Source: Escherichia coli
Lineage (GTDB): Bacteria > Pseudomonadota > Gammaproteobacteria > Enterobacterales > Enterobacteriaceae
Direction: 5' to 3' (one strand)
NCBI RefSeq assembly: GCF_050920415.1
Contig: NZ_CP169309.1
Length of the DNA stretch: 64,000 bases
Below, in pieces: positions 45,879 through 48,800 of this stretch. The position numbers are program-made. Numbering within the stretch: the first letter of the stretch is position 1; each line of letters starts with the position of its first letter.

Positions 45879-48800
45879 TAAGCCTGACTTTATCTGATTT
45901 AAAAATGCCAGCCTTCGGGCTGGCATTTTTTATGGTTGAGTTACCAGCGACCGGAAGCACCGCCACCGCCAGAAGAACCGTCACCTCCGCTAAATCCGCC
46001 ACCACTTGAGCCGCCACCAGAACCGCCGCTGTCTGAATGATAACTTCTACCTGATGCTTTTTTCTGTGGGACACATAACCAGGTAAAGACCATAATGATG
46101 GTGAAAGTAAAAAAGAAGGAAAATACAGCAATGGAAAAAGTTTGATCGGAGAACAGGAATAAATCTATAAGATAGACTGTTGAAATACAAACACTGCTTT
46201 TAAATGCCCGACAAAAATTATTGCCTTGATGAAAAAACCAGAAAGGGAAGAACATCACTGCAAATACCCAAAAAATAGCAAAGTAGTAATGATCACTGGA
46301 AGACGCTGATTCACTTTCTGAAGGATTAGACGAATATTGGTGTTGTGAAGTGAGTTGGTTATTCAAAGCGATTATAGCTAACTCTCATCCCTTAGCTAAT
46401 TTTTGTTTTTTAAAGGCGGGTATCATGATGTTACGGATGATATTGCCAGCCAGAGCATCGGTTACCTTTTCTTCCAGCCCATAACCTACCTGAATGCGGA
46501 CAGTTCGATCCGACCAGGCAACAACGATCAGTATCCCATCATTACGTTTGGCATCTCCTAAACGCCAATTGTCAAAAACCCTTGTAGCATATTGTTCAAT
46601 AGAATCGCCTCCGGTGGATGGCACTATTAATACAGCGACCTGTGCCCGTGTTTTTTGTGTAATATCCTGCAGCTGTTGTGTCAGTGATTGTTGTTCAGAC
46701 GTGCTTAAGGTACCAGTAATATCGGTCACCTGTTGGCGCAGCTCCGGCACAGCAATTTGCTGGGCAAGCACAGGAAGGCACCATAAAGTGAGTAGAAAAA
46801 GGATTATACGCATAACGATCACCAACGGTCGGATGAACCGCCACCGCCAGAAGAACCGCCGCCACCGCGGAAAGAGTTTTTCGACGAAGAACGAGAATGA
46901 GCATTACGATTCCCCGTTTTCTTGTTGCTTTTATGCCCTGATCCCAGTTTAAGATTGCCAGTAAATTTGGCCACAATGATCAGCAGAACGATGCCAGCAA
47001 TGGTTATTGGGCCGATAAAATGATCAATTAGCCCAATAATTGTTGAGATGAACGCAATATCTTTATTACTGGCGAATACCAGGCACCATCCCACAACAAT
47101 TATCAGCAGCACGACAAACAATGAATTTCGTCCTGATTCACGAACCTGCGGAGCCTTCTTTTGTTTTTTCACTTTAGCGTTTTTATTTTGGGGGGCCAGC
47201 ATCATAGGAAATGTGCGGCATATATTAAAAACTACCGCGAGACGCTGCCAGCAGATTGCTGCGAAAAATAAACTAAAACAAACGACCGATACCCGCCGAA
47301 TGATGACATCGTCCTGAAAGGAGAAAAACCAGACCATAGGAGTAATCATCGATATCATCCATATGCCAGGCCCGGGACGGCTGGTAAATCGCCAGAGGAC
47401 AACGATGGCAACGATCATCAGTAATGTCCAGGCAAGACATGGCAGCGAGCGTTGCGGATTAGCAAACAGATGATTGGCTAAAGCATCCAAAGGGCTAAGA
47501 TTCGCTTTTATATAGGTAAACTGTGCGATGCCTTCAATTCCCTGCGTTAACCCGGAGAAGAGATTATTTTTTTGAATTCCGGTTGCATATGGTAATGAAC
47601 AATTTGCGCAGCTTGTTCCGGTGGCAGCATCTCTTCCAGTCCATGCCCAATCTTCATTGACGCCAGCCCTTCCGGCCAAACGACGAGAATTAAGATACCT
47701 TCGCCGTACCGCTTCTCTCCAACAGGTTTCCAGTGATATAACCCGTAGCTTTGCGAGGCTGCAAGTTTAATGTCTTTACCCCCAGTGGTCAGCGTTACCA
47801 ACACGGCAACCTGAAAGTGGTTTTGCTGCTCGAGAGTCTGTAATTGTTGAGTTAAAGCAGTTTGTTCTTCTGTCGTTAATGTCCCGGTTAAGTCAGTTAC
47901 TGAAGGCAATTGTTCAGCGAATGCCTGGAAACCACATAGCATCAGAAGTAAGAGAAAAATACGCATTTCAATTCCTTTTGTTACCAGCGCCCGGAGGCGC
48001 CACCGCCGCCAGATGAACCGCCGCCGCCGCTGAAATTATCATTGTCAAAAGAGGATGAAGAGGAAGATGACGACGATGATGAAGAACGCCTGGAGGCCGA
48101 GTTACTTCTTTCGTAATGTGACGGTCGGTTGGCACTGCGCATCGAATCCCGAACCTTTTTGCCGAAGGGGGTAAAAGCGATGGCGACAGCCAGGAACGGT
48201 GTGGCGAAGCAGAGTAATGTTGCGAGTACTCCCCAGCTTCCGCTGAAACCTGCTATAGGTAAAACAAAGGCCAGTACAATAGCTGTGAAGCAAATTAGTC
48301 CCAGCGTTTTGACATATCCTCTGGCGGAAATAAAGGTCAGTACTATTGCCCAGACTAACAAAGCCCACCAACCGCTAAAGGGCAAAGGGTGATCGGTCGG
48401 TGTTATCGCTTCTAAATTATTCCCCGTCAGACGATTATCAATATCGCTTATTCCCTTTTGCAAGCCGCCAGCAAGGTCGCCATTTTTAAATGCCGGAATA
48501 ATACTGTTGCGAATAATTTTCCCGGACTGCGCATCCGTAATAACGCCTTCCAGTCCGTAACCGATTTCAATACGCACGGTATGATCCTGCCAGGCGACTA
48601 ACAGTAGAACGCCATCATCGCGGTCTTTATCTCCGGGTTTCCAGCTATCGAATACCCGCGTTGCGTACTGCTCGATGGTTTCATCGCCTGTGGTTTCAAC
48701 CACTAACACGACCAGTTGTGCGTGGCTTTTTTGCGTCAGCTCTTTAATCTGATTGGTCAACGTATTTACTTCATCGTTCGTCAATTTGCCGGTTAAGTCA

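What the first reader, a model, noticed from the sequence alone, without database searches (positions are those of the whole stretch)
47567..47573. Frameshift at an A7/T7 homopolymer splits TPM paralogue 2
On the coding (minus) strand the tract reads ttc-aaa-aaa-ata-atc (F K K I I ... stop), whereas one additional A gives F K K N N L F S G L T Q G I E G, fusing the TPM domain to the TM/Gly-rich part and matching the intact paralogue (FKNGDLAGGLQKGI). This is either a slipped-strand on/off switch for a surface-exposed protein or a homopolymer sequencing error.
Basis: seen in the sequence. Interest (0 to 1): 0.45.

Follow-up and report, generated by a model that had tools for sequence, protein, structure and literature searches.

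The report
Inherited one-base frameshift in TPM gene
A real, inherited one-base deletion in a run of A's breaks one of three tandem membrane-protein genes in a minor Escherichia lineage; it is an ordinary pseudogene that RefSeq already flags, not a sequencing error and not an on/off switch.

Summary
On the minus strand, A7 at 47567-47573 ends the second TPM-domain (YgcG-family) gene after 139 codons. One extra A restores a 382-aa protein.

- **Not an artefact.** The same A7 allele occurs in at least eight independent assemblies, including Escherichia clade I strain M863. They are identical over 5.4 kb, and RefSeq marks the gene "frameshifted".
- **Not a switch.** Among complete E. coli genomes, 150 of the 151 that share this local sequence have A8. 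A further 881 have the in-frame G-A7-C form. Only one genome is out of frame.
- **Stable inheritance.** Within the lineage, five A7 and two A8 sequences separate perfectly by a linked block of about 65 SNPs. A7 persisted through later changes such as loss of a CRISPR unit and an IS1 insertion.

Best reading: a single replication-slippage deletion (A8 to A7), inherited vertically, in a gene cluster that is decaying. The next paralogue carries a nonsense codon, and 80% of E. coli lack this gene.

One untested possibility remains. The A7 frame reads C-AAA-AAA, a heptamer reported to give -1 ribosomal frameshifting in E. coli, and that shift would rebuild the wild-type protein exactly. Overall interest is low.

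The parts
47567..47573 (-). A7 homopolymer. It is one base shorter than the A8 found in the intact allele, and it is the site of the frameshift.
   Evidence: Sequence read. Aligned against the A8 allele (ERP001) and the G-A7-C allele (O157). Census of 150 A8 versus 1 A7.
47568..47574 (-). C-AAA-AAA heptamer in the zero frame of the A7 allele, followed by the rare ATA codon. It is a potential -1 ribosomal slippage site, and that shift would rebuild the wild-type sequence F-K-K-N-N-L.
   Evidence: The frame was read. The precedent for C-AAA-AAA in E. coli is PMC1851650. Slippage was not tested here.
47547..47966 (-). 5' fragment of TPM paralogue 2: signal peptide plus a TPM domain lacking its last ~16 residues. 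It is 139 aa and ends at a premature TAA at 47547-47549.
   Evidence: ORF list. Pfam PF04536 covers residues 23-149 of the repaired protein. The exact product P0001 is on 63 contigs.
46819..47566 (-). 3' remainder of TPM paralogue 2, now out of frame. It corresponds to residues 134-382: hydrophobic segments and the C-terminal [15 protein letters not shown] tail, with the stop TGA at 46819-46821.
   Evidence: Hydropathy, alignment to orthologues. After repair it is 100% identical to the intact 382-aa protein of A8 strains.
47981..48889 (-). TPM paralogue 1, intact here (302 aa from the GTG start; the ATG-started ORF is 312 aa). It has a TPM domain, hydrophobic segments, and Ser-rich and Gly-rich tails.
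   Evidence: The exact protein is listed in 150 index blocks.
45941..46813 (-). TPM paralogue 3 (ygcG-type), interrupted by an in-frame stop codon at 46385-46387 (codon 146).
   Evidence: Translation. PGAP notes 'internal stop' in the near-identical strain MFDS1022581.
48903..49505 (-). LemA-family gene, the first gene of the LemA-TPM1-TPM2-TPM3 cluster lying between queE and eno.
   Evidence: PGAP annotation, Pfam PF04011 on gene calls, weak MamQ-like NCBIfam hit.

Best explanation
This is a genuine, vertically inherited frameshift mutation.

In an ancestor of a sub-lineage of Escherichia cryptic clade I (M863-like strains), replication slippage removed one A from an A8 run (TTC AAA AAA AAT to TTC AAA AAA ATA). 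The run lies in the second of three tandem TPM-domain / YgcG-family genes of the LemA-TPM cluster. Translation now stops 6 codons later. The product is a 139-aa secreted fragment with an incomplete TPM domain, no membrane anchor and no Gly-rich tail, so the gene is a pseudogene or at best a strongly attenuated allele.

The run is a mutational warm spot and nothing suggests it evolved as a switch. The cluster as a whole looks dispensable and is eroding in different ways in different lineages.

Shown: the lesion, its reality across independent assemblies, its rarity in the species, and its co-inheritance with linked markers.

Inferred: replication slippage as the cause, loss of function, and relaxed selection.
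For: 1. **Lesion and repair.** Searches show the break and its repair. The repaired protein is 100% identical to the 382-aa protein of A8 strains.

2. **Annotation.** RefSeq PGAP calls the gene 'frameshifted' in strain MFDS1022581, which is 100% identical to the window across this locus.

3. **Independent assemblies.** The exact truncated product is on 63 contigs. The records include M863, 1.2741, AP025751, JZDN01, AEZI02, QESR01 and DACAOM01. All carry A7, and those compared (L001, L022, L023, L025, L026) are identical over 5391 bp.

4. **Species census.**
   - The gene is present in 1105 of 5426 complete genomes.
   - Among the 151 with this local allele, 150 have A8 and 1 has A7.
   - Among the 952 with the other allele, 881 have exactly G-A7-C and none has exactly G-A6-C. 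The five non-exact hits listed all keep the 81-nt length.

5. **Linkage.** In a 20-kb alignment, five A7 and two A8 sequences separate perfectly by a block of about 65 SNPs at 51568-55126. The A7 group has since diversified: a 61-nt CRISPR unit was lost, IS1 entered barA, and there are private SNPs.

6. **Decay context.**
   - TPM3 has a nonsense codon here and a different one in ERP001.
   - O157 TPM1 has its own internal stop.
   - About 80% of complete E. coli genomes lack TPM2 altogether.

7. **Mutability.** Indel rates rise exponentially with homopolymer length in E. coli (PMC8510543). A second, independent -1 event (G-A7-C to G-A6-C) occurs on another allele, in three clean assemblies.
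Against: - The A7 and A8 alleles differ by nothing else in 1149 bp, and one A8 strain is identical to the A7 strains over 14 kb apart from the tract. The event is therefore recent, and a back-mutation cannot be formally excluded.
- Both states coexist in the lineage: about 63 contigs (80 index blocks) with A7 against 19 contigs with A8.
- Loss of function is assumed. The C-AAA-AAA context could allow substantial -1 read-through (PMC1851650).
- No read-level or within-culture data were available.
Confidence: 0.8

Rival explanations
1. Leaky or attenuated allele. Ribosomes slip -1 on C-AAA-AAA (tRNA-Lys), helped by the rare ATA codon in the A site. This would produce some full-length, wild-type-sequence TPM2 alongside the soluble 139-aa fragment. 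This reading is compatible with the best explanation; it modifies only the 'null' part.
For: In the zero frame the sequence is TTC-AAA-AAA-ATA, and a -1 shift after the second AAA reads AAT AAT CTC, which is exactly N-N-L of the intact protein. C-AAA-AAA in this frame gave 25-60% -1 frameshifting in E. coli with pDEST17 constructs, shown by protein sequencing, and the mRNA was unaltered (PMC1851650). Non-programmed -1 suppression of single-base deletions reached 1-10% in E. coli (PMC10861913). The downstream coding part carries no secondary lesions.
Against: The pDEST17 values come from T7-driven over-expression near the start of an mRNA. There is no stimulatory structure downstream here: the 77-nt fold has z = -0.47, and I saw no Shine-Dalgarno-like element upstream. 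The two-frame arrangement is not conserved, because every other allele is in frame. Transcriptional slippage is unlikely: E. coli RNA polymerase needs at least 7 T and even more A (PMC6260861). The absence of secondary lesions is equally explained by a recent origin.
Confidence: 0.2
2. Phase-variable contingency switch. The A-run toggles between A8 (ON) and A7 (OFF) at high frequency, varying a cell-envelope protein within populations.
For: The tract is a homopolymer inside the coding sequence. Both lengths occur in the same lineage on haplotypes that are otherwise identical. An independent -1 event exists at the same site in another allele.
Against: Only 1 OFF was found among about 1100 complete genomes with the gene, and no +1 variant was found: 150 of 151 are exactly A8. 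Tract state is perfectly linked to a neighbouring SNP block and stayed stable through later diversification. The tract is not conserved as a long run: the majority allele is G-A7-C, encoding E-K-N. From my own knowledge, not tested here: E. coli is mismatch-repair proficient, and A8 is short compared with known contingency tracts. The predicted topology is an inner-membrane protein with a periplasmic domain and gives no sign of surface exposure.
Confidence: 0.06
3. Homopolymer sequencing or assembly error. The true genome has A8 and the gene is intact.
For: Homopolymers are classic error sites. In the other allele, several G-A6-C records come from visibly noisy assemblies: eno and queE are broken, and near-identical sequences differ by 2-10 indels.
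Against: A7 is reproduced in many independent assemblies from different centres and years, including draft genomes with accession prefixes AEXD, AEZI and GL87, a complete genome (AP025751) and a RefSeq complete genome. The flanks are identical and there are no other indels over 5.4 kb. Assemblies of sister strains report A8 at this site, so both lengths are resolved in deposited assemblies.
Confidence: 0.02

Closest known systems
Frameshifted pseudogene as annotated by NCBI PGAP (locus ACE00D_RS04975 in E. coli MFDS1022581, 'TPM domain-containing protein, frameshifted')
   Same: It is the same gene with the same A7 lesion, and the DNA is identical across the locus.
   Different: Nothing material differs. 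This report adds the population context, the ancestral A8 state and the linked-marker evidence.
YgcG-family / TPM-domain (Pfam PF04536) membrane proteins, such as E. coli K-12 YgcG. Solved TPM domains include 7tbr, 2kw7 and BA41 (5anp).
   Same: The repaired protein has a signal peptide and a full TPM domain (E = 3e-21). It also has hydrophobic segments and the family's [12 protein letters not shown] tail.
   Different: At 382 aa it is longer than typical members (about 290-300 aa), with a larger hydrophobic region. No NCBIfam model matches it. The biochemical function of the family in E. coli is unknown, and the window's copy is disrupted.
Simple-sequence contingency loci (homopolymer-mediated phase variation, as in Neisseria, Haemophilus and Campylobacter)
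   Same: A mononucleotide run inside a coding sequence, where a length change moves the reading frame.
   Different: The run is short and not conserved. OFF variants are very rare in the species, and tract state is inherited clonally. It therefore fails the population criterion.
-1 ribosomal frameshifting on lysine codons: dnaX A-AAA-AAG, and the pDEST17 attB1 site C-AAA-AAA (PMC1851650)
   Same: The heptamer C-AAA-AAA is identical and in the same frame. A -1 shift would give the productive frame.
   Different: There is no stimulatory structure. The arrangement is a recent mutation and is not conserved. No expression data exist.

Membership tests
TPM domain / YgcG family | Significant match to Pfam PF04536 (TPM_phosphatase) across the whole model | tested here: met
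   The repaired protein matches at residues 23-149 against model positions 1-124 of 125, E = 3.3e-21. PDB TPM domains 7tbr, 2kw7 and 5anp match the same residues. The truncated 139-aa product lacks roughly the last 16 domain residues.
TPM domain / YgcG family | N-terminal signal peptide, C-terminal membrane segment(s) and a Gly-rich tail ending in ..GGGGxSGRW | tested here: met
   Hydropathy peaks lie at residues 3-21 and at about 174-335. The tail [12 protein letters not shown] is invariant in the orthologue alignment. No dedicated signal-peptide or TM predictor was available.
Frameshifted pseudogene | The reading frame is broken relative to intact orthologues, and a single-base repair restores the full-length homologue | tested here: met
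   plus the PGAP note 'frameshifted'.
Frameshifted pseudogene | The lesion is heritable: present in independent isolates of the lineage | tested here: met
Frameshifted pseudogene | No functional product is made | not testable with these tools
   This needs protein-level data. The C-AAA-AAA context leaves leakiness open (PMC1851650).
Phase-variable contingency locus | ON and OFF tract lengths are frequent and interleaved among closely related isolates | tested here: not met
   1 A7 against 150 A8. In the other allele, none exactly G-A6-C against 881 exactly G-A7-C. Tract state is perfectly linked to a block of about 65 SNPs in seven sequences.
Phase-variable contingency locus | The repeat tract is conserved or extended across alleles | tested here: not met
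   The majority allele is G-A7-C in frame, encoding E-K-N. A8 arises only where E becomes K.
Phase-variable contingency locus | Tract-length heterogeneity within a clonal culture | not testable with these tools
   No reads were available.
Programmed -1 ribosomal frameshift | Slippery heptamer in the correct frame | tested here: met
   C-AAA-AAA in the zero frame, with the precedent PMC1851650.
Programmed -1 ribosomal frameshift | Downstream stimulatory RNA structure | tested here: not met
   The 77 nt downstream fold at -14.9 kcal/mol with z = -0.47, and 58 of 200 shuffles fold at least as well.
Programmed -1 ribosomal frameshift | The two-frame gene organisation is conserved among homologues | tested here: not met
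   Orthologues in E. coli, E. albertii and others are single in-frame ORFs.
Assembly artefact | The state is not reproducible in independent assemblies of the same lineage | tested here: not met
   A7 is reproduced in at least eight independent records.

The most novel reading that the evidence does not exclude
The A7 allele is not null. It places C-AAA-AAA, followed by the rare ATA codon, exactly where a -1 ribosomal slip regenerates the wild-type protein. This clade I lineage would then make a reduced amount of full-length membrane-anchored TPM2 plus a soluble periplasmic TPM fragment. That would be a naturally occurring 'self-suppressing' frameshift. It could also explain why the downstream coding sequence is still intact.
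Probability: 0.15. Interest if true: 0.35.

Novelty: already known. Interest (0 to 1): 0.1.

Why it matters
It matters little beyond correct annotation. In this lineage the gene should be read as a fixed frameshift pseudogene. It should not be 'corrected' as an assembly error, and it should not be listed as a phase-variable locus.

The case is a useful calibration example. A homopolymer frameshift that looks like a switch or an artefact can be settled from public assemblies alone, using three checks:
- reproduction across independent assemblies;
- a species-wide census of tract length;
- linkage to neighbouring markers.

There is minor extra value in documenting piecemeal erosion of the LemA-TPM cluster in Escherichia. 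The C-AAA-AAA context also offers a natural test case for non-programmed -1 frameshift suppression.

Tried and rejected
- **Exact-sequence cluster look-up.** It returned 'not in the collection' for the repaired 382-aa protein and for the O157 protein. This was a false negative for the repaired protein, because the look-up of encoding contigs later found it on 19 contigs. I did not use that negative.
- **The search for homologous proteins with the repaired protein.** Clusters are at 90% identity and mostly have E. albertii or partial representatives, so it could not show whether an ON copy of this allele exists. It gave orthologues only.
- **First polarity argument from site 45512.** It suggested A7 was derived together with a G-to-A change. 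The second A8 strain (L032) carries the A7-type base there, so that site is not decisive. I replaced the argument with the linked block at 51568-55126.
- **Library scans.** NCBIfam has no family for TPM2, and only sub-threshold Psb32 and MamQ hits for its neighbours. PADLOC gave no defence-system match. Rfam gave nothing at gathering threshold in 44000-54000.
- **Frameshift stimulator.** The fold downstream of the tract is no better than shuffled sequence.
- **Transcriptional slippage as a rescue route.** Rejected as unlikely for A7 with E. coli RNA polymerase (PMC6260861).
- **Not attempted.** Structure prediction and fold search were not run, because the domain identity was already clear from sequence.

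Full report
**Setting**

The window covers the Escherichia pyrG-eno ... queE-ygcE region. Between eno and queE, on the minus strand, lies a four-gene cluster:
- a LemA-family gene (48903-49505);
- three tandem TPM-domain / YgcG-family paralogues: TPM1 (47981-48889), TPM2 (46819-47966) and TPM3 (45941-46813, the ygcG-type copy).

The finding concerns TPM2.

**Observation**

The + strand has T7 at 47567-47573, which is A7 on the coding strand. The coding frame reads TTC AAA AAA ATA ATC TCT TCT CCG GGT TAA, so the ORF that starts at 47966 ends at 47547 after 139 codons. Adding one A gives a continuous 382-aa ORF reading ...EFKKNNLFSGLTQGIEG....

A run of seven is not remarkable in itself: the window holds 19 runs of 7 or more, against about 12 expected from composition. 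What is informative is that the two halves align end to end with single 382-aa proteins in other strains.

In the repaired protein, Pfam TPM_phosphatase covers residues 23-149 (E = 3.3e-21). The break at residue 133/134 therefore removes the end of the domain, all hydrophobic segments (about 174-335) and the conserved Gly-rich tail.

**Is it an artefact?**

No. RefSeq strain MFDS1022581 is identical across the locus, and PGAP annotates its copy as 'frameshifted'.

The exact 139-aa product is on record on 63 contigs, listed in 80 index blocks. The sources include M863, 1.2741, the complete genome AP025751 and several other drafts. Every such locus I read has A7. Those compared (L001, L022, L023, L025, L026) match the window at all 5391 positions from queE to eno. 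Assemblies of sister strains give A8 at this site, so both lengths are resolved in deposited assemblies. M863 is Escherichia cryptic clade I (PMC4182557). That probably explains why only one RefSeq complete 'E. coli' genome matches at 99% or more.

**Is it a switch?**

The evidence says no.

| Group of complete E. coli genomes | Count |
|---|---|
| All genomes searched | 5426 |
| Carry TPM2 | 1105 |
| Share the window's 76-nt context | 151 |
| of those, A8 | 150 |
| of those, A7 | 1 |
| Carry the other allele context | 952 |
| of those, exactly G-A7-C (in frame, E-K-N) | 881 |
| of those, exactly G-A6-C | 0 |

The five non-exact hits of the other allele that were listed all keep the 81-nt length.

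Within the lineage, the intact A8 version of exactly this allele exists on 19 contigs. I aligned 20 kb from five A7 sequences and two A8 strains:
- Tract state separates perfectly with a block of about 65 SNPs at 51568-55126.
- The A7 group has since diversified: a 61-nt CRISPR repeat-spacer unit was lost, IS1 entered barA, and there are private SNPs.
- One change of state explains all of this.

The run is also not conserved as a long tract. It is a by-product of Glu/Lys-Lys-Asn codons. Finally, the predicted topology is a signal peptide, a TPM domain and hydrophobic segments. That points to an inner-membrane protein with a periplasmic domain and gives no sign of surface exposure.

**Most likely history**

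A replication-slippage deletion (A8 to A7) occurred once and was inherited. Indel rates in E. coli rise exponentially with run length (PMC8510543), so the site is a warm spot.

An independent -1 event (G-A7-C to G-A6-C) is recorded on another allele. It appears in three clean, mutually consistent assemblies, and also in several visibly error-ridden ones.

The event is recent. A7 and A8 alleles differ by nothing else in the gene, and one A8 strain equals the A7 strains over 14 kb apart from the tract.

The cluster looks dispensable:
- TPM3 carries a nonsense codon in this lineage, including in its A8 members.
- ERP001 has a different TPM3 nonsense codon, and O157 has a stop in TPM1.
- Four-fifths of complete E. 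coli genomes lack TPM2.

**What remains open**

Reversion cannot be formally excluded without reads or a genome-wide tree.

The allele also may not be fully null. Its zero frame contains C-AAA-AAA followed by the rare ATA codon, and a -1 slip there reads AAT AAT CTC, which is the wild-type sequence. The same heptamer gave 25-60% -1 ribosomal frameshifting in E. coli from pDEST17 constructs (PMC1851650). Non-programmed -1 suppression of 1-10% has also been measured in E. coli (PMC10861913).

Several points weigh against a designed or efficient event:
- No downstream structure is present (z = -0.47).
- The two-frame arrangement is not conserved.
- The high published values come from over-expression.
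- Transcriptional slippage on A7 is unlikely with E. coli RNA polymerase (PMC6260861).

**Comparison with known things**

The gene is a member of the TPM / YgcG family (domain, signal peptide and tail all met). The feature is a frameshifted pseudogene, already annotated as such. It fails the population and conservation criteria for a contingency locus. For programmed frameshifting it fails the structure and conservation criteria and meets only the heptamer criterion. No defence-system, NCBIfam or Rfam match adds anything.

**Verdict**

The anatomy is right. Of the two explanations offered, sequencing error is refuted and the on/off switch is not supported. This is an ordinary, already-annotated pseudogene. 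Interest is about 0.1, and the only mildly interesting residue is the possibility of self-suppression by ribosomal slippage.

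Noticed in passing
window 46385-46387 (within TPM3, 45941-46813, minus strand): The ygcG-type third paralogue has an in-frame stop at codon 146 (..LAKG*ELAI..), which PGAP marks 'internal stop'. It is also present in the A8 members of the lineage, so it predates the TPM2 frameshift. Strain ERP001 has a different nonsense codon in the same gene (..VRI*VGY..).
   Followed up: partly
window 47981-48889; L003 2127-3034 (O157:H7 DEC4E): TPM1 is a full 302-aa ORF in the window. PGAP nevertheless labels the same gene 'incomplete; missing C-terminus' in MFDS1022581 and ERP001. The 225-aa O157 'TPM domain-containing protein' is in fact cut short by an internal stop (..GVLAT*LCFATPF..), and the rest of the homologous sequence continues in frame. 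The annotation of this paralogue looks inconsistent.
   Followed up: partly
L009, L016, L017 (tract at about 3385-3410); L010-L015, L018: An independent one-base deletion at the same site in the commoner allele (G-A7-C to G-A6-C) gives another 139-aa product, P0015, on 54 contigs. Three records are clean and mutually consistent. The others belong to two further haplotypes, and their assemblies are riddled with indels (eno and queE broken), so there the change may be a sequencing error.
   Followed up: partly
window 50688-50899: A small type I-E CRISPR array lies between queE and ygcE: 4 repeats at 61-nt spacing, matching the E. coli repeat with 1-3 mismatches. One repeat-spacer unit (50717-50777) is missing in some A7 strains (L033 and L036, and probably L001).
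   Followed up: partly
window 51568-55126: A block of about 65 SNPs in 3.5 kb (about 2% divergence), covering ygcE, the MFS transporter gene and upstream sequence, separates the A7 strains from the two A8 strains. Their flanks are nearly identical, so this looks like a recombination import.
   Followed up: no
window about 41744-41838 (mazG-relA intergenic): Gene calls in the lineage show mazG directly followed by relA, with no mazEF toxin-antitoxin pair. E. coli ERP001 has mazE and mazF there (L037 16201-16784).
   Followed up: no
window 54605-54613 (T9), 54344-54351 (A8), 51094-51100 (T7): Other homopolymers vary by one base among these very close strains. None overlaps a called gene in the related loci. 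This shows ordinary length polymorphism, or assembly noise, at long A/T runs in the same genomes.
   Followed up: no
tools: the listing of cluster members reported the repaired 382-aa protein as absent from the collection, while look-up of encoding contigs found it on 19 contigs. 'Not in the collection' from that tool is not reliable evidence of absence.
   Followed up: yes
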